From IMG/VR virus record IMGVR_UViG_2703718802_000013, positions 1 to 9,563 of that record: a DNA stretch of 9,563 bases; one strand, given 5' to 3'. The DNA comes from a virus. Its lineage: Duplodnaviria > Heunggongvirae > Uroviricota > Caudoviricetes. Of this stretch, positions 1 through 9,119 are shown one piece after another. Positions within the stretch are counted from its first letter, which is position 1; the number at the start of each line of letters is the position of its first letter. The notes below the pieces were generated by a model that ran no database searches, was not told the origin of the DNA, and saw only the letters and a program-made list of their open reading frames with translations. A program made the translations under genes and the position numbers.

Positions 1-210
1 ATGCGTGAAATAAATGAAGATCGCGTAATCCGTGAGGATGAATGTCGTAAGTTAACTGGAGTGTGCCGCACTACACGTTACGAACTGGAGAAAAAAGGGC
101 GCTTTCCGTCACGTCTTAATCTGGGCGGTCGTTCTGTAGGGTGGCTGCTGTCCGAGGTTATGGAATGGGTTAAAAGCAGGGATCGCATTAATTCAGGTAA
201 GGCAGCGTAG
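1..210 (+). CDS. alpA: AlpA-family phage transcriptional regulator (small winged-HTH, excisionase-like)
   Basis: 69 aa ORF from the track. The segment RKLTGVCRTTRYELEKKGRFPSRLNLGGRSVGWLLSEVMEWV matches the AlpA/Vis pattern (HTH followed by G.FP...LG.RSVGW...EV..W) as I recall it. The ORF begins at window position 1, so the true start could lie upstream. Confidence 0.7.
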   Translation: MREINEDRVIREDECRKLTGVCRTTRYELEKKGRFPSRLNLGGRSVGWLLSEVMEWVKSRDRINSGKAA

Positions 211-287
211 GGGGAACATATGACACATAAAACAAAGGCGACCTGGGGCGGTCGCCAATGGGAAAACACTAAACATAAGCCCGAACA

Positions 288-503
288 TCATAGCGATTTG
301 CTGGCTGGTGGGCAATTATCTTGCTTGTTGGGGCCGTATTGTGCTGCCATTTTCATCCGTTCAGAACGTGAATATTTTTTTAGAAACTCATCAAGGACAA
401 AAGCGCATGGTGCGAATCTTTCTGATTCATGCTCTGGCGCCATATTTTCGTGCTCTCTGTCCGTTTTTTGCGATGGTGTATTGGTTGATTCTTTGTTGGT
501 CAT
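288..503 (-). CDS. small hypothetical protein (71 aa), partner gene of RHH cassette 1; paralog of 954-1181
   Basis: Track ORF starting MTN. Its C-terminal region (FVLDEFLKKYSRSER) resembles that of the 954-1181 product (FALEDFVDKYPRRLK). It sits 57 nt downstream, on the minus strand, of the RHH gene 561-734, and the intergenic element is conserved with the one before 954-1181. The SD is weak. Confidence 0.4.
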   Translation of the reverse strand: MTNKESTNTPSQKTDREHENMAPEHESERFAPCAFVLDEFLKKYSRSERMKMAAQYGPNKQDNCPPASKSL

Positions 504-560
504 TGTGTGTACCTGTAAAGCAATGCGCCGTAGTACCTCACGCCACGGCGCTGATGTTTT

Positions 561-734
561 TTATCCTTTGGGTTCAATACCGCGTTGCTGTAATTCTTTT
601 CGGAGTACTCGCTTGATCCAGGTGGCTAAAGAAGTGTCACCGTCTGCTTTCGCTGCCTCTTCAAGTTGTGCTCTGAATTCTTCTGGTAGCCGCATTTGGT
701 ATGGAGGCGATCGCTTTTCCAATGGTGTTGACAT
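561..734 (-). CDS. ribbon-helix-helix (Arc/MetJ-like) DNA-binding protein, 57 aa
   Basis: Not in the ORF track because it is under 60 aa. My minus-strand translation is MSTPLEKRSPPYQMRLPEEFRAQLEEAAKADGDTSLATWIKRVLRKELQQRGIEPKG. The beta-strand then two-helix pattern (YQMRLPEEF...LATWIKRVLRKEL) resembles Arc-type repressors. The start codon overlaps a palindromic operator. Confidence 0.5.
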   Translation of the reverse strand: MSTPLEKRSPPYQMRLPEEFRAQLEEAAKADGDTSLATWIKRVLRKELQQRGIEPKG

Positions 735-776
735 GGTAATTACCCTTAATTACTATAGTTACATGGTAATTACCAT
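733..776. promoter_or_regulatory. two copies of a palindromic operator-like site (ATGGTAATTACC at 733-744; perfect 14-bp palindrome ATGGTAATTACCAT at 763-776)
   Basis: Read directly from the sequence. GGTAATTACC is self-complementary. The two copies are 30 bp apart and overlap the start codon and presumptive promoter of the minus-strand RHH gene 561-734. Confidence 0.45.
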
Positions 777-792
777 TGTACTTACCGTTATA

Positions 793-834
793 CAAAAAAC
801 AACGCCCCGCAGTGGTGGCTCACATACGGGGCGT
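793..834 (-). terminator. hairpin (ACGCCCCG / CGGGGCGT, 8-bp stem) followed by a T-run on the minus strand
   Basis: Stem arms at 802-809 and 827-834 with a 17-nt loop. The plus-strand A-run 794-800 reads as a T-run on the minus strand. It lies downstream of minus-strand gene 954-1181. It could instead be an RNA structural element of the duplicated module. Confidence 0.4.
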
Positions 835-865
835 CTAACCAAACCATTAATTGAGGTAACGATTA

Positions 866-920
866 TGGCTATAAAAGAGCATAGCTTACTCTTTATACAC
901 ACACAAACGCCCCGGAAACG
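866..920 (+). pseudogene. 5' remnant of an Icd-like gene (first ~18 codons only)
   Basis: ATG at 866 with a GAGG RBS. The translation MAIKEHSLLFIHTQT parallels MVAVNHIPHLVHTQT at the start of the Icd-like gene 1604-1801. Homology is lost after about 55 nt and no FVWRF or TEREAR motif follows. Confidence 0.3.
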
Positions 921-953
921 GAATAATCCGTTTCATAGTTCGGTTTTGTGCAC

Positions 954-1181
954 TCATCCTGGCGGTCGGTTTTTGCCGGATTTAAGCCGCCGTGGGTATT
1001 TATCGACAAAATCTTCAAGGGCAAATTTTTCTGGTGGCATTAAGCGCGGCGCTGGTGGTGGTATTTTTGTTCTGGTTAGTTCTTCCTCAACTCTGGCGCA
1101 GGCTTCTGACTGCCTTTGCCGGATGATTTCATCATCTTGCGTTTGCGTGTCTTGTATTGGTGATAGTGTGTTGTTGGTCAT
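954..1181 (-). CDS. small hypothetical protein (75 aa), partner gene of RHH cassette 2; paralog of 288-503
   Basis: Track ORF starting MTN. It lies directly downstream, on the minus strand, of RHH-like gene 1239-1418, separated by a conserved ~50 bp element that contains a hairpin. Confidence 0.4.
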   Translation of the reverse strand: MTNNTLSPIQDTQTQDDEIIRQRQSEACARVEEELTRTKIPPPAPRLMPPEKFALEDFVDKYPRRLKSGKNRPPG

Positions 1182-1238
1182 GATACTGCCCTGTAAAGTA
1201 ATGCGCCATAGTACCTCACGCCACGGCGCTGATAGTGA

Positions 1239-1418
1239 TTATTCTGATTCTTTGGCCTTGCGACGCTGGCGGCGTTTGATTTCGCCGCGCATGGCAGTAA
1301 CGATAAATTGTGCGTCTGTTTCGTTTTCTTCTTTTACCAAATTCATTTCGCTTAAAACGTCTAGAGGTACTCTAGCAGTTTTTTGTTGTGACTTGTTGTT
1401 GGTTGTACCTGTTGGCAT
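1239..1418 (-). CDS. small DNA-binding protein, probably ribbon-helix-helix (59 aa)
   Basis: Shares the track ORF 1239-1586 frame, but I start it at the internal ATG at 1418, which is preceded by a strong SD (minus-strand AGGAGAACAGAG then ATG). The product MPTGTTNNKSQQKTARVPLDVLSEMNLVKEENETDAQFIVTAMRGEIKRRQRRKAKESE aligns loosely with the 561-734 RHH protein (RLPEEF...LATWIKRVLRKEL versus RVPLDV...AQFIVTAMRGEIKR). Confidence 0.45.
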   Translation of the reverse strand: MPTGTTNNKSQQKTARVPLDVLSEMNLVKEENETDAQFIVTAMRGEIKRRQRRKAKESE

Positions 1419-1484
1419 CTCTGTTCTCCTTACTGTTAGGTGGTGTTCAGTATACGGAGAAAAAAAAATAAAAAAAGACTTGAA

Positions 1485-1529
1485 GTGCAAGTCACCTAAA
1501 AGTAACCTAGATTTCAAGGTGACTTGCAC
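1485..1529. promoter_or_regulatory. perfect 13-bp inverted repeat GTGCAAGTCACCT - N19 - AGGTGACTTGCAC (operator-like) in the divergent intergenic region
   Basis: Read directly. It lies between the minus-strand RHH-like gene (start 1418) and the plus-strand Icd-like gene (start 1604). A TATACT -10-like hexamer for the minus-strand gene is at 1451-1456. Confidence 0.45.
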
Positions 1530-1530
1530 C

Positions 1531-1572
1531 AAAAAAACAACGCCCCACAGTGCTGGAACACATGCAGGGCGT
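1531..1572 (-). terminator. hairpin (ACGCCC / GGGCGT) with a minus-strand T-run; paralog of the 793-834 element
   Basis: Stem arms at 1540-1545 and 1567-1572. The plus-strand A-run 1531-1539 is a T-run on the minus strand. About 75 percent identical by eye to 793-834 and its flank. Function uncertain (terminator or RNA structure). Confidence 0.35.
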
Positions 1573-1603
1573 CTAACCACAAACACTATAGAGAGGTAAA
1601 TTT

Positions 1604-1801
1604 ATGGTTGCCGTAAATCATATACCACACCTTGTACACACACAAACTGCCTTTGTGTGGCGTTTTCTGGCACTGAGTGCCGGAGAATCTCAAATCATCC
1701 ACGTAACCGCCTGGACGGAACGCGAAGCGCGTAACCTTTGCCCGTCCGATTGTGTTGCTGTATACGCCGCCCGTATTCGCCAGGGGTCACATCATGCGTA
1801 A
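1604..1801 (+). CDS. Icd-like small protein (host cell division inhibitor Icd-like family), 65 aa
   Basis: Track ORF with RBS GAGAGG. The motifs FVWRF ... TEREAR ... AARIRQG match what I recall of the Icd-like proteins annotated in enterobacterial P4-like and PICI elements. Paralogous to 2088-2261. Confidence 0.5.
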   Translation: MVAVNHIPHLVHTQTAFVWRFLALSAGESQIIHVTAWTEREARNLCPSDCVAVYAARIRQGSHHA

Positions 1802-1988
1802 AAACCGCTTGCAAAAAATTATAACGGGGCTGTATGCTTCCCCCGTCGCCCACATGGCGACCGGGTTTAGCAGCCTGAATACTACAGCGGACAGCCGCTT
1901 ACATTCCGATATGCGGTTTTTTTGTGTCCGTAAGCCTACCCATACCCGCATTATGGCGGGGCGTAACGGGGGAGCCTTTGCGCTCGCT

Positions 1989-2081
1989 GGTTCCTGTAGT
2001 GCCAGTCTGCTAACCCTGTTACGTCTCGCCACCCCGTTTAGCAGCGTAGTAGCGAGACTCCTTAATTTCACTACAGGAGCC
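1989..2081 (+). promoter_or_regulatory. candidate antisense pairing pair: 1989-2003 (GGTTCCTGTAGTGCC) is complementary to the RBS region of the second Icd-like gene at 2068-2081 (TCACTACAGGAGCC)
   Basis: The reverse complement of 1989-2003 is GGCACTACAGGAACC, against ACTACAGGAGCC at the RBS: 12 contiguous pairs if one G-U wobble is allowed, covering the AGGAG SD. This resembles the seqB/seqC logic of P4 CI RNA and P1 c4 RNA. RNA boundaries are unknown. Confidence 0.3.
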
Positions 2082-2087
2082 TTTCAC

Positions 2088-2261
2088 ATGGCTGTATCCG
2101 CACGCCCTTACTTTGTCTGGCGCTTTATGCAGTGCCACCACAGCAGCATTGCAATATTCACCGTTACCGCTGCCACTGAGTGCGAAGCCCGCGCCCAGCT
2201 GCCGCGCGCACATCTGATTTTTGTCGCCCGCATTCGCCAGGGGGAAACCTATGCACAATAA
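2088..2261 (+). CDS. Icd-like small protein, second paralog (57 aa)
   Basis: Internal ATG at 2088 of track ORF 1752-2261, preceded by AGGAG at 2075-2079 with an 8-nt spacer. The product MAVSARPYFVWRFMQ...TECEARAQLP...FVARIRQGETYAQ shares FVWRF, EAR and ARIRQG with 1604-1801. Confidence 0.5.
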   Translation: MAVSARPYFVWRFMQCHHSSIAIFTVTAATECEARAQLPRAHLIFVARIRQGETYAQ

Positions 2262-2481
2262 AACCACACCGGACGCAGCAGAAGAAGCAATGCAAATACT
2301 GATACGTGCGCTCGTTGATGTTACCCACATGGTGGAGATTATGGAGAGAAAATCACAGTCGGAGCACGACAAAAGAAAACTTAAAACAATAAAAATAATT
2401 GCCAAAAACTCGCTGATAAAAGTTACAGACATCCTTAATGAGGACATTAAAAGAATAAGGGAGAAAATTTGTGATGCATAA
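2251..2481 (+). CDS. hypothetical protein (76 aa)
   Basis: ATG at 2251 preceded by AGGGGGA. It overlaps the end of the Icd-like gene and sits in the same-strand operon leading to the primase. No recognisable motif. Confidence 0.4.
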   Translation: MHNKTTPDAAEEAMQILIRALVDVTHMVEIMERKSQSEHDKRKLKTIKIIAKNSLIKVTDILNEDIKRIREKICDA

Positions 2482-2706: not shown

Positions 2707-3006
2707 ATGAAACTTAAATATTCTGGCTTAACTGCCAGTGGCAACACTCACCCTAAATTTACGCGCGGTGATATTTACCGCGACCAGTACGGCGGCACGG
2801 TAATGATTAAGGGCGTGGCGGGACGGTGCGTAACTTACCGCCGTGAAGGTTACGAATATGATTGCGTGATGCCTGTTTATCAGTTCCGGCGTGATTTTTC
2901 TCTGGTACAGACCGCGCCGCATAACGTGCCCACCAGCAGGGAGAAAGCACGCGCCAATATTCAGGAAATAAAAAAGATGCTTAACGTATTCAGGGGTAAA
3001 AAATGA
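2707..3006 (+). CDS. hypothetical protein (99 aa)
   Basis: Track ORF with RBS GGAGAA about 9 nt upstream. Its stop overlaps the start of the primase gene (3003), suggesting translational coupling. Confidence 0.45.
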   Translation: MKLKYSGLTASGNTHPKFTRGDIYRDQYGGTVMIKGVAGRCVTYRREGYEYDCVMPVYQFRRDFSLVQTAPHNVPTSREKARANIQEIKKMLNVFRGKK

Positions 3007-5147
3007 AACTGGCACCGAACGTAAAACAGCAGTCACGCGGCATAAAACACAAAGAAACAGAAGTCATTATTTTTGCGGGTAGTGATGCCTGGTCACACGC
3101 AAAACAATGGCAGGAACATGACGCGCGTATGGCCGGAGATAATGAGCCTCCTGTGTGGCTTGGGGAGCAGCAGTTATCCGAACTGGATAAGCTGCAAATT
3201 GTGCCGGAAGGCAGAAAATCAGTACGCATATTCAGGGCCGGACATCTTGAGCCAGTAATGATCAAGGCGATTGGTCAGAAACTGGCGGCGGCAGGCGTAC
3301 AGGATGCAAATTTTTACCCTGAGGGAATGCACGTTCAGAAGGTGGAGAACTGGCGCGAATATCTGGCCCGTGAGCGGCAGAATCTTTCTGATGGTCTGGT
3401 TATTGAGCTTCCGGTAAAGAAAAAAGATACCGGAAGTCATAGCGATGACGAATTAAAGCCACGCGTTGAAAGTCGCGCCGATGGTGTTTTCTGGGTAACG
3501 CCCAAAGTGGATAAGCAGTCAGGCGAAATTATCCGGCCTGAGACGTGGTTATGTTCTCCGCTTGAACTACTGGGAACGGGGACGATCGGTAAAGAGCATT
3601 ACCGCGTGATGCGCTGGAAAAAAACCGCAAACCATGAAGTCATCACAATGGCGATCCCGTGTGGTGGTATCGGCGACCGTGACGGCTGGCGGTTACTTAA
3701 AGATCACGGGCTGAACGTGACAACCAACGGCAAATACAGGGCAATCCTGGCGGACTGGATGCAGTTAAGCGGAAGCCATGAGGAATGGCAGTTAAGCACA
3801 ACAACGGGCTGGCATTTTGGCGCGTACATCATGCCGGACGGTTCGATCATTGGTGATTCTGAAAAACCGATCCTGTTTACCGGAAAAAGCGCCGCGATTA
3901 ACGGTTATTCCGTGGCGGGTACGGCGGAGGGCTGGCGCGAGAGTGTGGCGCGGCTGGCTGGCGGTAATGCCTCAATGATGCTGGGTGTGGCAACGTCACT
4001 GGCAGCGCCTTTAATTGGCCTTGTGGGTGCTGACGGCTTCGGGGTGCATCTTTTCGAACAGTCATCGGCAGGTAAGACCACCACGCAGAACATCGCATCA
4101 AGTTTATGGGGAGAGCCGGACGCGCAGCGGCTGACCTGGTACGGCACGGCGTTAGGTATTGCCAATGAGGCCGAGGCCCATAATGACGGGCTTTTACCAC
4201 TGGATGAGATAGGCCAGGCCGGAAATGCGCGGGAAGTGTCAACGTCTGCTTATACGCTGTTTAACGGTTCAGGGAAATTGCAGGGGGCGAAGGATGGCGG
4301 CAACAGGGAGATCAAACACTGGCGAACGGTGGCAATCAGCACCGGAGAAATGGACGTTGAGACATTCCTCAAAAGTGAGGGGATAAAAGTTAAGGCGGGG
4401 CAGCTTGTCCGACTGCTTAACGTTCCGATGGAAAAAGCCACGAAATTTCACGAATACAGCAACGGTAAGGAACATGCTGACGCGTTAAAGGATGCCTGGA
4501 CAGCAAATCACGGGGCGGCGGGTCGTGAGTGGGTTAAATGGCTGGCAGGCCACCAGCAGGAGGCAAAGGACACGGTAAGGGAATGCCGCGAACGGTGGCG
4601 CAACCTGATACCGGAGAGTTACGGCGAGCAGGTCCACCGCGTGGGTGAACGTTTCGCCATACTGGAGGCCGCGCTTGTGCTTTCCGGTCATGTAACTGGC
4701 TGGGTCGTGCAGGAATGCCGCGACGCGATACAGCATAACTTTAATGCCTGGGTGAAAGAGTTCGGTACGGGCAACAGGGAACACAGGCAGATTATTGAAC
4801 AGGCTGAGGCGTTTCTTGCGGCCTATGGCCTGAGCAGGTTCGCCCCTGTCAATTATGACCCTGCCAGCCTGCCGATTTCAGAACTGTACGGCTACAGGGA
4901 AAGCGACGGGCGTTATGACGAGCCTGTTTTGTTTTACGTGCTGCCGGAGCCGTTTAGCTCACATGTGGCGAAGGGATTTAACAAGGATGCCGTAGCAAAG
5001 ACCCTTCATGAAGCCGGAATGCTGAGAAAACCAGCCAGCGGGCGGGGATGGCAAATCAGGACACCACGACTAAAACACCTGAAAGGGGCGCGGCTAAGAG
5101 TGTATGGCCTTTTGCTGACGCAGGACCACGATGCTGAAAATGATTAA
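3003..5147 (+). CDS. satellite-type primase/replication initiator (P4 alpha-like or PICI Pri-Rep-like, with a P-loop NTPase motif)
   Basis: 714 aa track ORF with an AGGGG RBS. It contains a deviant Walker A-like motif (SSAGKTT, encoded around 4068-4090). Its size and its position just upstream of an iteron array match replication proteins of P4-like and PICI elements. The domain assignment (DUF927-like) is from memory, not a search. Confidence 0.65.
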   Translation: MKLAPNVKQQSRGIKHKETEVIIFAGSDAWSHAKQWQEHDARMAGDNEPPVWLGEQQLSELDKLQIVPEGRKSVRIFRAGHLEPVMIKAIGQKLAAAGVQDANFYPEGMHVQKVENWREYLARERQNLSDGLVIELPVKKKDTGSHSDDELKPRVESRADGVFWVTPKVDKQSGEIIRPETWLCSPLELLGTGTIGKEHYRVMRWKKTANHEVITMAIPCGGIGDRDGWRLLKDHGLNVTTNGKYRAILADWMQLSGSHEEWQLSTTTGWHFGAYIMPDGSIIGDSEKPILFTGKSAAINGYSVAGTAEGWRESVARLAGGNASMMLGVATSLAAPLIGLVGADGFGVHLFEQSSAGKTTTQNIASSLWGEPDAQRLTWYGTALGIANEAEAHNDGLLPLDEIGQAGNAREVSTSAYTLFNGSGKLQGAKDGGNREIKHWRTVAISTGEMDVETFLKSEGIKVKAGQLVRLLNVPMEKATKFHEYSNGKEHADALKDAWTANHGAAGREWVKWLAGHQQEAKDTVRECRERWRNLIPESYGEQVHRVGERFAILEAALVLSGHVTGWVVQECRDAIQHNFNAWVKEFGTGNREHRQIIEQAEAFLAAYGLSRFAPVNYDPASLPISELYGYRESDGRYDEPVLFYVLPEPFSSHVAKGFNKDAVAKTLHEAGMLRKPASGRGWQIRTPRLKHLKGARLRVYGLLLTQDHDAEND

Positions 5148-9027: not shown

Positions 9028-9054
9028 CAGACGCGCAATTATTGAACAAAAATG

Positions 9055-9116
9055 AGAAAGGATCTGATAATGGCATTTTCTGGCTAAAATGCCATTATCA
9101 GATCCTTTCTTTTTTT
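9055..9116. terminator. perfect 25-bp inverted repeat (AGAAAGGATCTGATAATGGCATTTT / AAAATGCCATTATCAGATCCTTTCT) with a 6-nt loop, followed by T6
   Basis: Read directly. It acts as a strong intrinsic terminator after the Nu1-like gene. It also occupies the position, relative to the inverted cos2, where lambda has its own cosB inverted repeat. Confidence 0.6.
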
Positions 9117-9119
9117 AAT

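What the first reader, a model, noticed from the sequence alone, without database searches (positions are those of the whole stretch)
793..1660. Duplicated ~130-bp module (hairpin, RBS, Icd-like 5' end) with one copy decayed to a remnant
Segment 794-920 parallels 1531-1660: the same A-run, the ACGCCCC...GGGGCGT hairpin, CTAACC, an RBS and the first ~18 codons (MAIKEHSLLFIHTQT versus MVAVNHIPHLVHTQT). Only the second copy continues into an intact Icd-like gene. This implies that a whole regulatory unit (RHH cassette plus divergent Icd arm) was duplicated or acquired by recombination between related satellites and then partly decayed. The immunity region may be a mosaic hotspot.
Basis: seen in the sequence. 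Interest (0 to 1): 0.4.

Follow-up and report, generated by a model that had tools for sequence, protein, structure and literature searches.

The report
Duplicated antisense small-RNA gene module
The repeated ~130-bp piece is real, and it most likely carries a previously undescribed small antisense RNA gene that covers the start of a cell-division-inhibitor-like gene in E. coli phage satellites; it occurs twice here because two different repressor cassettes sit in tandem.

Summary
Segments 794-920 and 1531-1660 are 73% identical (z=16 against shuffles), and only copy 2 leads into an intact Icd-like gene. The interpretation needs revising.

1. This is not a recent duplication. The two repressors show no detectable similarity, and only two short blocks are shared. 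Two heterologous immunity cassettes lie in tandem in a highly mosaic region. Related islands carry unit 1 joined to an intact Icd-like gene, or one unit alone, or both units without copy 1.

2. The module coincides with a predicted ~80-nt RNA gene on the minus strand. It has an invariant TAnnnT -10 element inside Icd-like codons 5-7. Exactly 7 nt downstream a 5' stem-loop begins, with the anti-Shine-Dalgarno sequence in its loop. A terminator hairpin and U tail follow.
- 55 distinct relatives keep both helices: 94% of cells pair, and 11 pairs show compensatory changes.
- 202 G-U cells pair only on the minus strand, against 7 that would pair only on the plus strand.
- Rfam has no matching family.
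- Copy 1 is a canonical member (91 bits), so it is not simply decayed.

Expression and function are inferred, not shown.

Separately, a plus-strand reading frame stays stop-free through both antisense cassettes.

The parts
792..870 (-). Predicted antisense sRNA, copy 1 (~79 nt). 5' stem-loop at 870-837 with the anti-SD CCUC in a 7-nt loop; terminator hairpin at 834-802; U tail at 801-794.
   Evidence: Covariance model R1 scores it 91.2 bits, E=1.5e-20. MFE is -34 kcal/mol, z=-5.3, against z=-2.9 for the + strand. Coordinates.
878..906 (-). Predicted promoter of sRNA copy 1: -35 TTGTGT (906-901), 17-nt spacer, -10 TATGCT (883-878). It lies inside codons 5-14 of the truncated Icd-like leader.
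   Evidence: TAnnnT is invariant in 56 of 56 aligned modules and always sits 7 nt from the start of the 5' stem. The -35 matches the consensus at only 3 of 6 positions. This is an inference from sequence; no transcription start site data exist.
853..914 (+). Copy 1 of the Icd-like translation start: SD GAGG at 853-856, ATG at 865, about 15 leader codons (MAIKEHSLLFIHTQT). Homology to intact genes ends near 907-914, just before the FVWRF start of the Icd-like domain.
   Evidence: The intact counterpart is in L002. The domain spans residues 17-60 of the copy-2 protein.
1530..1609 (-). Predicted antisense sRNA, copy 2 (~80 nt). 5' stem-loop at 1609-1575; terminator hairpin at 1572-1540; U tail at 1539-1531.
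   Evidence: R1 scores it 69.1 bits, E=2.7e-15. MFE is -30.4 kcal/mol, z=-4.1, against z=-2.05 for the + strand. A terminator-like site on the - strand was found by the scan.
1617..1645 (-). Predicted promoter of sRNA copy 2: -35 TTGTGT (1645-1640), 17-nt spacer, -10 TATGAT (1622-1617). It lies inside codons 5-14 of Icd-like gene 1.
1604..1801 (+). Intact Icd-like gene 1 (65 aa), the cis target of sRNA copy 2.
   Evidence: NF033153, 63.1 bits against a cutoff of 25. Annotated as Icd-like in STEC17-190.
561..734 (-). Unit 1 putative repressor (57 aa), Arc/RHH-like.
   Evidence: Sequence matches are all weak: Pfam Arc E=0.008 (below cutoff); YlcI_YnfO_N E=5e-4 (below cutoff); AmrZ E=0.62. The model shows an extended N-terminus plus two helices. 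Foldseek was inconclusive. The protein is 98% conserved in L002 at 88% DNA identity.
288..503 (-). Unit 1 small ORF (71 aa), downstream of RHH1 on the minus strand.
   Evidence: It matches no family.
728..776 (+). Unit 1 rightward promoter, TTGACA-17-TACTAT (728-756), flanked by the inverted repeat ATGGTAATTACC / GGTAATTACCAT (733-744, 765-776). These are putative operators.
   Evidence: Promoter scan, 10 of 12 matches. Inverted repeat I3 and direct repeat D5.
954..1181 (-). Unit 2 small ORF (75 aa), a distant paralogue of the 71-aa ORF.
1239..1418 (-). Unit 2 putative repressor (59 aa), YlcI/YnfO family.
   Evidence: NF041551, 61.7 bits against a cutoff of 30. The single-sequence model is one long helix, so the fold is unresolved.
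1485..1529 (.). Unit 2 perfect 13-nt inverted repeat GTGCAAGTCACCT / AGGTGACTTGCAC (putative operator pair). It flanks a by-eye rightward promoter, TTGAAG-17-TAACCT.
   Evidence: Inverted repeat I2. The promoter was read from the sequence and is an inference.
493..567 (-). Conserved block D1, copy 1: the intercistronic hairpin GCGCCGUGG...CUACGGCGC between the repressor and the small ORF, plus the start of the small ORF.
   Evidence: 81% identical to 1171-1245. Highly conserved across loci. Its G-U pairs favour the minus strand; this was read from the sequence.
1171..1245 (-). Conserved block D1, copy 2.
788..914 (.). 22-nt direct repeats D3 (788-809 and 893-914, 82% identical) bracketing module copy 1. 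The relative L098 lacks exactly 810-914.
211..1599 (+). Stop-free + reading frame of 462 codons. It runs from the alpA stop to a TAA 4 nt before the Icd-like ATG, antisense through both cassettes. ATG 865 lies in this frame.
   Evidence: It has 1 stop against 13.5 expected (minimum 3 in 5000 simulations). The pattern recurs in relatives.
1832..2036 (+). Context: a1/b1-like target (1832-1881), isrK-like element (1845-1923) and C4 antisense RNA (1949-2036), lying between the two Icd-like genes.
   Evidence: Rfam: C4 72.2 bits (gathering score 45); c4-a1b1 45.5 bits (gathering score 46.7); isrK 36.6 bits.

Best explanation
The window comes from an E. coli phage satellite (PICI/P4-like). Its gene order is int, alpA, an immunity zone, Icd-like/c4, a primase-like gene, capsid and terS.

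The immunity zone holds two heterologous leftward cassettes in tandem. Each has a small Arc/YlcI-type repressor, an intercistronic hairpin and a 71- or 75-aa ORF. Each faces a rightward promoter with its own inverted-repeat operators.

The repeated ~130-bp module is the conserved element next to each rightward promoter. On the + strand it is the 5'UTR, Shine-Dalgarno sequence, ATG and first ~15 codons of an Icd-like gene. On the minus strand it is a complete small-RNA gene with these parts:
- a promoter whose -10 (TAnnnT) and weak -35 lie inside Icd-like codons 5-14
- a transcript of about 80 nt that starts 7 nt after the -10
- a 5' stem-loop that displays the anti-Shine-Dalgarno sequence CCUC in its loop
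- an intrinsic terminator hairpin with a U-rich tail, which abuts the -35 of the leftward repressor promoter

Inferred mechanism. The cis-antisense RNA pairs with the translation-initiation region of the Icd-like mRNA and blocks its translation. As in the P1 c4/icd and P4 CI systems, this probably lets Rho terminate the untranslated early operon. It would be an RNA layer of immunity on top of the protein repressor.

The module occurs twice because recombination in this mosaic zone placed a second cassette between unit 1 and its Icd-like gene. That event cut the unit 1 Icd-like ORF after the HTQT leader and left the sRNA gene intact.

Shown: the homology, the truncation, the architecture, the minus-strand-specific conserved structure, the invariant -10 motif and the distribution. 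Inferred: transcription of the sRNA, its regulatory effect and any involvement of Rho.
For: Homology: 73% identity, z=16; tandem layout with two conserved blocks.

Truncation: L002 carries unit 1 joined to an intact 121-aa Icd-like gene that starts at the ATG equivalent to window 865.

Heterologous cassettes: RHH1 vs RHH2 gives E=1.9. orf71 vs orf75 gives 31% identity, E=0.01.

Mosaicism and census:
- Matches to window 1-2300 are fragmentary.
- 98 single-module against 8 double-module strands.
- The copy-1/orf75 junction occurs in 110 of 5426 genomes.
- The module occurs in 1050 of 5426 genomes.

Minus-strand RNA:
- 30 of 34 distinct hairpins are more stable as minus-strand RNA, by a mean of 2.8 kcal/mol.
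- The alignment of 56 modules gives a 13-bp hairpin with 98.9% of cells paired and 65 double-change cells; 0 of 500 shuffles reach this.
- All 54 distinct sequences fold into the same two-hairpin shape with the anti-SD in the first loop.
- The covariance model finds only the two minus-strand copies in the window (91 and 69 bits). The best + strand hit on the same DNA scores 12 bits.
- All 66 hits in 85 sources lie on the strand opposite the Icd-like gene wherever that gene was mapped.
- On the model-fitted alignment 93.9% of cells pair, 11 of 27 pairs have changes on both sides (86 cells), and 0 of 500 shuffles reach this.
- 202 G-U cells are valid only on the minus strand, against 7 C-A cells. 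That gives 93.9% paired on the minus strand and 80.6% if read on the plus strand.

Promoter: TAnnnT is invariant in 56 of 56 modules. It includes the wobble T of codon 6, although that residue varies between His, Ser and Leu. It sits exactly 7 nt from the start of the stem in 56 of 56 modules.

The family logic of translational repression coupled to termination is established for P1 c4/icd and for P4 CI (prior knowledge). A C4-family RNA sits 350 nt downstream.
Against: - There is no expression evidence: no RNA-seq, no TSS mapping and no Northern blot.
- The -35 is weak (3 of 6) in all members, and the generic promoter scan did not report these sites.
- The U tail is interrupted in many relatives: mean 5.2 U in 9 nt, for example GUCGUUUAC.
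- The 55 distinct sequences are related by descent, and the A3 alignment was fitted to the model, so the covariation counts lean towards the structure.
- L098 carries both cassettes but lacks copy 1 entirely, so copy 1 is dispensable in at least one lineage.
- The 100% identity of copy 1 across lineages could reflect recent spread by recombination rather than selection.
- The direction of the event that created the tandem array cannot be determined.
Confidence: 0.62

Rival explanations
1. A whole regulatory unit was duplicated or acquired. The module is only the 5'UTR hairpin, RBS and N-terminus of Icd-like genes. Copy 1 is a functionless remnant drifting towards loss.
For: Copy 1 lacks the Icd-like domain. 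L098 has lost exactly copy 1 between 22-nt direct repeats and keeps both cassettes. Most islands have one unit.
Against: The cassettes are not paralogous at any detectable level. Copy 1 shows no decay. It is the better match to the family model (91 bits). It keeps the promoter motifs, both helices and the U7 tail. It is identical in lineages whose flanks have diverged. The hairpin's conservation pattern is specific to the minus strand, which a + strand 5'UTR reading does not explain.
Confidence: 0.15
2. The hairpin is only a leftward intrinsic terminator or insulator. It stops stray antisense transcription from the early operon before it reaches the repressor promoter. There is no dedicated sRNA promoter and no regulatory pairing.
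For: The hairpin and T-run directly abut the -35 of the predicted leftward repressor promoter (sequence). In the tandem array copy 1 lies downstream of the unit 2 leftward operon, where a terminator is expected. The predicted sRNA -35 is weak.
Against: A bare terminator does not explain three things:
- the second conserved helix with covariation and G-U pairs, which presents the anti-SD in its loop in 54 of 54 sequences
- the invariant TAnnnT exactly 7 nt upstream of that helix
- the nucleotide-level conservation of codon-6 wobble

In addition, single-unit islands have no leftward gene upstream of the hairpin.
Confidence: 0.15
3. The structure acts on the + strand, as a 5'UTR stem-loop that stabilises or regulates the Icd-like mRNA. 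An example would be protection from RNase E or service as a protein-binding site.
For: The complementary hairpin also forms in the + RNA (-13 to -24 kcal/mol). It lies between the rightward promoter and the RBS.
Against: There are 202 G-U cells against 7 C-A cells. Read on the + strand, pairing falls to 80.6%. The + strand folds have z-scores of only -2 to -3. The + strand scores 7-12 bits against the model.
Confidence: 0.05
4. The long + strand ORFs are genuine protein genes: 220-1599 here, and a 550-aa 'Icd-like' protein as annotated in strain 2011C_4247. The module would then be internal coding sequence.
For: The frame is significantly depleted of stops. It is often in frame with the Icd-like ORF. 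PGAP annotated one such ORF.
Against: It matches no family. Its composition looks like antisense translation. The sequence is completely different for different cassettes. The minus-strand repressor is under purifying selection: 98% protein identity at 88% DNA identity. A conserved SD and ATG mark the short Icd-like start.
Confidence: 0.03

Closest known systems
Phage P22 immI region: Mnt and Arc (RHH repressors) plus the sar antisense RNA that controls ant
   Same: Small RHH-type repressors sit at divergent promoters. A short cis-antisense RNA is transcribed convergently with the regulated operon. It covers the ribosome-binding site of the first regulated gene and ends at an intrinsic terminator. 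P22 immI has two protein repressors and the sar antisense RNA controlling ant (PMC2629481); the remaining details of sar are prior knowledge.
   Different: There is no Rfam match to a sar family or to any other family at E<=1, apart from a weak SymR hit. The target is an Icd-like gene, not ant. The promoter lies inside the target's first codons. The element is found in satellites and has no match in 50,697 phage records.
P1/P7 immI: c4 antisense RNA, icd, ant (Rfam RF01695 C4; RF03163 a1/b1)
   Same: It is an immunity RNA that blocks translation of an Icd gene, and thereby downstream transcription. A bona fide C4 member and an a1/b1-like target lie 300-400 nt downstream in the same operon.
   Different: c4 is encoded on the same strand as its targets and is processed from the operon transcript. 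It acts through short a'/b' loops. The module RNA is encoded on the opposite strand, is fully complementary to its target and has its own promoter and terminator. It does not match the C4 model.
P4 CI RNA with seqA/seqC, and the immunity RNAs of Gram-negative PICIs
   Same: It is RNA-based immunity in a satellite. C4 and isrK profile hits in the 'dynamic zone' of Gram-negative PICIs have already been reported (PMC10111431).
   Different: That report concerns the C4/isrK elements, not this minus-strand RNA and not the repressor cassettes.
Type I toxin-antitoxin cis-antisense RNAs such as SymR/SymE
   Same: A ~77-80-nt antisense RNA overlaps the SD and AUG of a potentially toxic gene. There is a weak Rfam hit to SymR at 1536-1609 on the minus strand.
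   Different: The hit scores 25.9 bits against a gathering score of 61 (E=0.17), so it is not a member. The context is a satellite early operon rather than a stand-alone TA pair. Toxicity of these Icd-like proteins has not been tested.
Mosaic immunity regions of temperate phages and satellites (lambdoid imm modules, SaPI Stl diversity)
   Same: Conserved linker segments flank highly variable repressor/operator modules, and there is abundant recombination.
   Different: Here two complete heterologous repressor cassettes are stacked in series upstream of one early operon.

Membership tests
Icd-like protein (NCBIfam NF033153) | The protein matches the phage_ICD_like domain above the curated cutoff (25 bits). 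| tested here: met
   The copy 2 ORF at 1604-1801 scores 63.1 bits, over residues 17-60.
Icd-like protein (NCBIfam NF033153) | The same feature, tested on the ORF opened by the copy 1 ATG at 865. | tested here: not met
   The 459-aa frame that contains it matches no Pfam or NCBIfam family. Only the ~15-codon leader upstream of the domain is retained.
Recent tandem duplication of a regulatory unit | The two units are paralogous along their whole length. | tested here: not met
   RHH1 vs RHH2 gives E=1.9. The operators are unrelated. Only 493-567/1171-1245 and 788-915/1526-1655 align well.
Intrinsic (Rho-independent) terminator | A G+C-rich hairpin is followed directly by a U-rich tract on the transcribed strand. 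| tested here: met
   On the minus strand there are 13-15-bp stems followed by UUGUUUUUU in both window copies. In relatives the tail is less regular, with a mean of 5.2 U in 9 nt.
Structured RNA (conserved secondary structure) | Base pairs are maintained by compensatory changes across homologues, on one defined strand. | tested here: met
   93.9% of cells pair, 11 of 27 pairs have changes on both sides, and 0 of 500 shuffles reach this. Slid controls pair at 34-49%. There are 202 G-U cells against 7 C-A cells.
cis-antisense regulatory sRNA | It has its own promoter and a discrete transcript. | not testable with these tools
   Only sequence evidence is available: an invariant TAnnnT 7 nt upstream of the 5' stem in 56 of 56 modules, and a weak -35.
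cis-antisense regulatory sRNA | It is complementary to the translation-initiation region of the target, and the contact sequence is exposed. | tested here: met
   It overlaps the SD and AUG by construction. The anti-SD lies in the apical loop in 54 of 54 predicted folds.
Rfam C4 antisense RNA (RF01695) | The score reaches the gathering threshold of 45 bits. | tested here: not met
   The module has no C4 hit. The window's only C4 hit is at 1949-2036 on the + strand, at 72.2 bits.
Rfam SymR (RF01809) | The score reaches the gathering threshold of 61 bits. | tested here: not met
   1536-1609 on the minus strand scores 25.9 bits, E=0.17.
Ribbon-helix-helix (Arc/MetJ) repressor | The protein matches an RHH family above threshold, or has a beta-alpha-alpha fold. 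| tested here: inconclusive
   RHH1: Pfam Arc 16.5 bits against a cutoff of 20.4; AmrZ E=0.62; the model shows an extended N-terminus plus two helices at pLDDT 69; Foldseek found nothing significant. RHH2: YlcI/YnfO family 61.7 bits, but the single-sequence model is one long helix.

The most novel reading that the evidence does not exclude
The immunity zone may be wired through translation. A + strand reading frame is kept free of stop codons all the way from alpA, and from the copy 1 ATG at 865, through the antisense repressor cassettes and their intergenic promoters. It ends at a TAA 4 nt before the Icd-like ATG.

In this reading, transcripts from upstream promoters escape Rho-dependent termination only while ribosomes translate this sequence-irrelevant leader ORF. 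Each copy of the antisense sRNA gates entry into that frame by masking an SD and AUG.

Copy 1 would then be a working gate rather than a remnant. It would connect the unit 1 promoter in series to the early operon, so that the satellite could respond to two different repressor/inducer specificities.
Probability: 0.15. Interest if true: 0.8.

Novelty: new variant of a known kind. Interest (0 to 1): 0.5.

Why it matters
How Gram-negative PICI/P4-like satellites stay silent, and how they sense helper phages, is poorly understood. Published descriptions of this 'dynamic zone' mention Bro-N proteins and C4/isrK-type RNAs. They do not mention small Arc/YlcI-type repressor cassettes or a cis-antisense RNA.

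If the predicted sRNA is real, it is an unannotated RNA family present in about 19% of complete E. coli genomes. It would add a third layer to satellite immunity, alongside the protein repressor and the c4-like RNA, and would combine features of the P22 and P1 immI regions.

Three practical points follow:
- The 5' ends of these Icd-like genes carry a dual coding constraint.
- Annotation pipelines currently mis-call long 'Icd-like' ORFs across the zone.
- Tandem cassettes give a natural system for testing whether satellites stack immunity specificities.

Tried and rejected
- The genome-contig scan with the Icd-like protein returned only one locus, in Shigella flexneri, so it gave no cross-species breadth.
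- GenBank phages (50,697 records) have no match to the module plus Icd-like gene, so no phage homologue can be used for comparison.
- A full-text literature search for the conserved 12-mer on either strand returned only unrelated eukaryotic papers.
- The EcCIMP1 paper and the helper-embedded PICI paper do not describe this RNA or the cassettes.
- Rfam at E<=1 gives only a sub-threshold SymR hit for the module. I rejected it as family membership.
- The generic promoter scan did not report the sRNA promoters, because their -35 matches only 3 of 6 positions.
- I looked for pairing between the module's CTAACC motif and the c4 b' loop or its targets and found no convincing complementarity. This was a by-eye check, and I dropped it.
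- An alternative -10 (CATAAT, overlapping the ATG) is not conserved in the copy-2 or L001 classes, so I rejected it.
- The single-sequence AlphaFold models of the two repressors and a Foldseek search of the PDB did not establish the RHH fold.
- I could not decide whether the window-type junction or the L098-type junction is ancestral.
Full report
CONTEXT. The window is a phage satellite of the Gram-negative PICI/P4-like kind.
- alpA lies at 1-210 (Pfam Phage_AlpA, E=1.7e-16).
- A 714-aa DUF927 primase-like gene lies at 3003-5147.
- Capsid-like and small-terminase-like ORFs lie further right.
- A 99.6% identical copy sits next to cspD/yljB in E. coli STEC17-190, preceded by an integrase gene.
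- Rfam finds a C4 antisense RNA at 1949-2036 (72 bits), an a1/b1-like target at 1832-1881 and an isrK-like element. These lie between two Icd-like genes at 1604-1801 and 2089-2261.

So the finding sits in the immunity zone of a satellite whose early operon resembles P1 immI.

OBSERVATION. The two segments are clearly homologous.
- 92 of 126 aligned positions are identical (73%). The score is 117 against 27 +/- 5.6 for 1000 dinucleotide shuffles (z=16).
- The part after the hairpin is 64% identical (z=5.8).
- Only copy 2 continues into a protein that matches the Icd-like family. That domain begins at residue 17, with the FVWRF motif.
- Copy 1 keeps only the ~15-codon leader that precedes the domain.

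THE LARGER LAYOUT. The minus strand carries two cassettes in tandem.
- Unit 1 has a 57-aa Arc-like protein at 734..561 and a 71-aa ORF at 503..288.
- Unit 2 has a 59-aa YlcI/YnfO-family protein at 1418..1239 and a 75-aa ORF at 1181..954.
- Each cassette faces a rightward promoter region with its own inverted repeats. Unit 1 has ATGGTAATTACC/GGTAATTACCAT around a TTGACA-17-TACTAT promoter. Unit 2 has a perfect 13-nt repeat at 1485-1497/1517-1529.
- Aligning unit against unit shows only two well-conserved islands: 493-567/1171-1245 (81%) and the module.
- The two repressors are not detectably similar (E=1.9). The small ORFs are only distantly related.

This is therefore a juxtaposition of two different immunity cassettes that share conserved linker blocks. 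It is not a recent duplication.

WHAT RELATIVES CARRY.
- Matches to window 1-2300 in 5426 complete E. coli genomes are fragmentary. 1361 genomes match something, and only one matches at least 80%.
- STEC346 (L002) has the unit 1 repressor (56 of 57 residues identical), the same operators, a hairpin with a compensated stem, and the same RBS and ATG. There these lead into an intact 121-aa Icd-like gene. This shows directly that copy 1 is a truncated Icd-like start.
- L004 and L006 have a single cassette. L003 has two.
- A pattern scan of IMG/VR returned about 95 genuine modules. In that set plus the E. coli loci, 98 strands carry one module and 8 carry two. BLAST mapping shows about 11 loci with two repressor genes and none with three.
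- In every two-module locus the first copy is the same sequence (MAIKEHSLLFIHTQT...). It is fused to the 3' flank of the 75-aa ORF, while the hairpin and repressor to its left vary. This junction occurs in 110 of 5426 genomes.
- In O111:H8 (L127) and strain 00-3076 (L128) the block 836-950 is 100% identical to the window. The body of the 75-aa ORF on its right is strongly diverged in both. The operators and hairpin loop on its left differ in L128.
- L098 carries the same two repressors but lacks exactly 810-914. That is the interval between the 22-nt direct repeats at 788-809 and 893-914.
- L049 has the 75-aa-ORF cassette alone, next to alpA, with no homology to 907-953.

I cannot tell whether the window-type or the L098-type junction came first.

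THE MODULE IS A MINUS-STRAND RNA GENE. The hairpin stems differ between loci through compensatory changes, and the mismatches are telling.

Strand of the hairpin:
- Of 34 distinct hairpins, 30 fold more stably as the minus-strand RNA, by a mean of 2.8 kcal/mol. They contain 45 G-U pairs on the minus strand against 16 on the plus strand.
- An alignment of 56 distinct modules in minus orientation gives a 13-bp consensus hairpin. 98.9% of cells pair and 65 cells changed on both sides. 0 of 500 shuffles reach this, and slid controls pair at 37-54%.

Two-hairpin shape:
- Folding the 80 nt from just right of the ATG to the T-run gives the same shape for both window copies and for L002. The MFEs are -34, -30 and -36 kcal/mol (z = -5.3, -4.1 and -6.6).
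- The + strand folds of the two window copies have z-scores of only -2.9 and -2.05.
- All 54 distinct sequences adopt this shape. The anti-Shine-Dalgarno sequence (CCUC, CUCC or GCUC) lies in the apical loop of the 5' hairpin in 54 of 54.

Covariance model built from these sequences:
- In the window it finds only 792-870 on the minus strand (91 bits) and 1530-1609 on the minus strand (69 bits). The same DNA read on the + strand scores 7-12 bits.
- It finds 66 hits in 85 sources. Wherever the Icd-like gene was mapped, the hit lies on the opposite strand. The unrelated contigs that had matched the search 15-mer by chance gave no hit.
- On the resulting alignment 93.9% of 1467 cells pair, and 11 of 27 pairs have changes on both sides.
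- 202 cells are G-U, valid only on the minus strand. Only 7 are C-A. Read on the plus strand, pairing would fall to 80.6%.

Promoter:
- In the 46 aligned columns that correspond to Icd-like codons 2-16, only three are invariant. They spell TAnnnT on the minus strand: TATGCT in 38 modules, TATGAT in 10, TAGACT in 5, TACTAT in 2 and TAAGCT in 1.
- One of the three is the wobble position of codon 6, which stays T although the residue varies between His, Ser and Leu.
- The hexamer lies exactly 7 nt from the first base of the 5' stem in 56 of 56 modules.
- In the window both copies read TTGTGT-17-TATGCT or TATGAT.

That explains why the block is conserved as a unit.

Rfam 15 has no matching family. 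The only hit is sub-threshold, to SymR (25.9 bits against a gathering score of 61). GenBank phages have no match. The module is detectable in 1050 of 5426 E. coli genomes.

MECHANISM (INFERRED). The RNA is fully complementary to the 5'UTR, SD, AUG and first two or three codons of the Icd-like mRNA. It presents the anti-SD in a loop and is transcribed convergently with the repressor-controlled rightward promoter, about 105 nt away.

The closest functional analogue is P22 immI, where two small repressors and the sar antisense RNA control ant (PMC2629481). In P1 (c4/icd) and P4 (CI with kil/eta), blocking translation of the first ORF causes termination of the early operon; this is established prior knowledge. 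The same logic would make this RNA an immunity factor.

None of this has been shown experimentally. The -35 is weak, and the U tail is interrupted in many relatives.

IS COPY 1 A REMNANT? As a protein-coding start it is truncated. As an sRNA gene it is intact and canonical.

It also lies where a terminator for the unit 2 leftward operon is expected. There it is preceded by a second terminator-like hairpin at 916-935.

Against a required function, one lineage (L098) has lost it cleanly. Its perfect conservation may also reflect recent recombinational spread.

NOTICED: A STOP-FREE PLUS FRAME.
- The + frame beginning right after the alpA stop (211) has no stop until the TAA at 1597-1599, 4 nt before the Icd-like ATG. 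It runs antisense through four genes and five intergenic regions. ATG 865 of copy 1 lies in this frame.
- The other + frames contain 23 and 38 stops.
- A null model that keeps the minus-strand proteins, pools their codon usage and shuffles the intergenic dinucleotides expects 13.5 stops. The minimum in 5000 runs was 3.
- The + frame shares wobble positions with all four minus-strand genes.
- Long open frames upstream of the Icd-like ATG recur in relatives. The median is 356 codons over 86 distinct loci, and 58 of the 84 frames of at least 100 codons are in frame with the Icd-like ORF.
- 9 of 18 sequence clusters are stop-free over the 520 nt upstream of the module, while 4 clusters show no depletion.
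- PGAP has annotated one such frame as a 550-aa 'Icd-like protein'.
- The translated sequences match no family and differ completely between cassettes.

I read this as possible selection for translatability, that is, protection from Rho polarity. That fits the family's logic but is speculative. A weak + strand terminator-like site at 1361-1375 counts against unobstructed read-through.

VERDICT. The feature is best described as two copies of a previously unannotated cis-antisense sRNA gene that overlaps Icd-like translation starts. The copies are stacked because two heterologous repressor cassettes lie in tandem in a mosaic satellite immunity zone.

Noticed in passing
window 211-1599 (+); also L001, L002, L004-L006 and many IMG/VR loci: One + strand reading frame is kept free of stop codons from the alpA stop to 4 nt before the Icd-like ATG, running antisense through the repressor cassettes and their intergenic regions. 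It has 1 stop against 13.5 expected. The pattern recurs in 9 of 18 sequence clusters and is often in frame with the Icd-like ORF. PGAP annotates one such frame as a 550-aa Icd-like protein.
   Followed up: partly
window 493-567 and 1171-1245: This is a second conserved block of the tandem units. It holds an intercistronic hairpin (minus strand GCGCCGUGG...CUACGGCGC) between each repressor gene and the small ORF. It is nearly invariant across E. coli loci, and its G-U pairs favour the minus strand. In unit 1 the complementary + strand hairpin is followed by a T6 run (558-563), so it looks like a terminator on that strand as well.
   Followed up: partly
window 788-809 and 893-914; L098 2555-2580: 22-nt imperfect direct repeats (TTATACAAAAAACAACGCCCCG and TTATACACACACAAACGCCCCG) bracket module copy 1. 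The relative L098 lacks exactly the interval between them. This fits deletion by repeat recombination, or the reverse event.
   Followed up: yes
window 1794-2261 (= L001 4801-5268): RefSeq annotates a 155-aa 'Icd-like protein' whose N-terminal two-thirds reads straight through the a1/b1 target and the C4 RNA gene (1832-2036). The real Icd-like ORF is probably the 57-aa one starting at 2089. In other genomes the same stretch is annotated as frameshifted.
   Followed up: no
window 9047-9118: A long, nearly perfect AT-rich inverted repeat (AAAAAUGAGAAAGGAUCUGAUAAUGGCAUUUU ... AAAAUGCCAUUAUCAGAUCCUUUCUUUUUUU) lies between the terS-like ORF and the next ORF. Rfam picked it up only as spurious plant/animal microRNA precursor hits. 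It may be a bidirectional terminator or a packaging-related site.
   Followed up: no
window 1361-1375 (+): A + strand terminator-like site (CTAGAGGTACTCTAG followed by CAGTTTTTTG) lies antisense within the unit 2 repressor gene. If it works, it would limit rightward read-through from unit 1 into the Icd-like operon.
   Followed up: no
window 731-789: There are three copies of a 17-nt operator-like motif (ACATGGTAATTACCCTT, ACATGGTAATTACCATT and the degenerate CCATTGTACTTACCGTT). Each is centred on the palindrome GGTAATTACC, and they overlap the rightward promoter of unit 1.
   Followed up: no
E. coli plasmids: 33 of 1222 BLAST places for the module lie on plasmid records rather than chromosomes, for example a 68.9-kb record from strain fM51a at 76% identity.
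   Followed up: no
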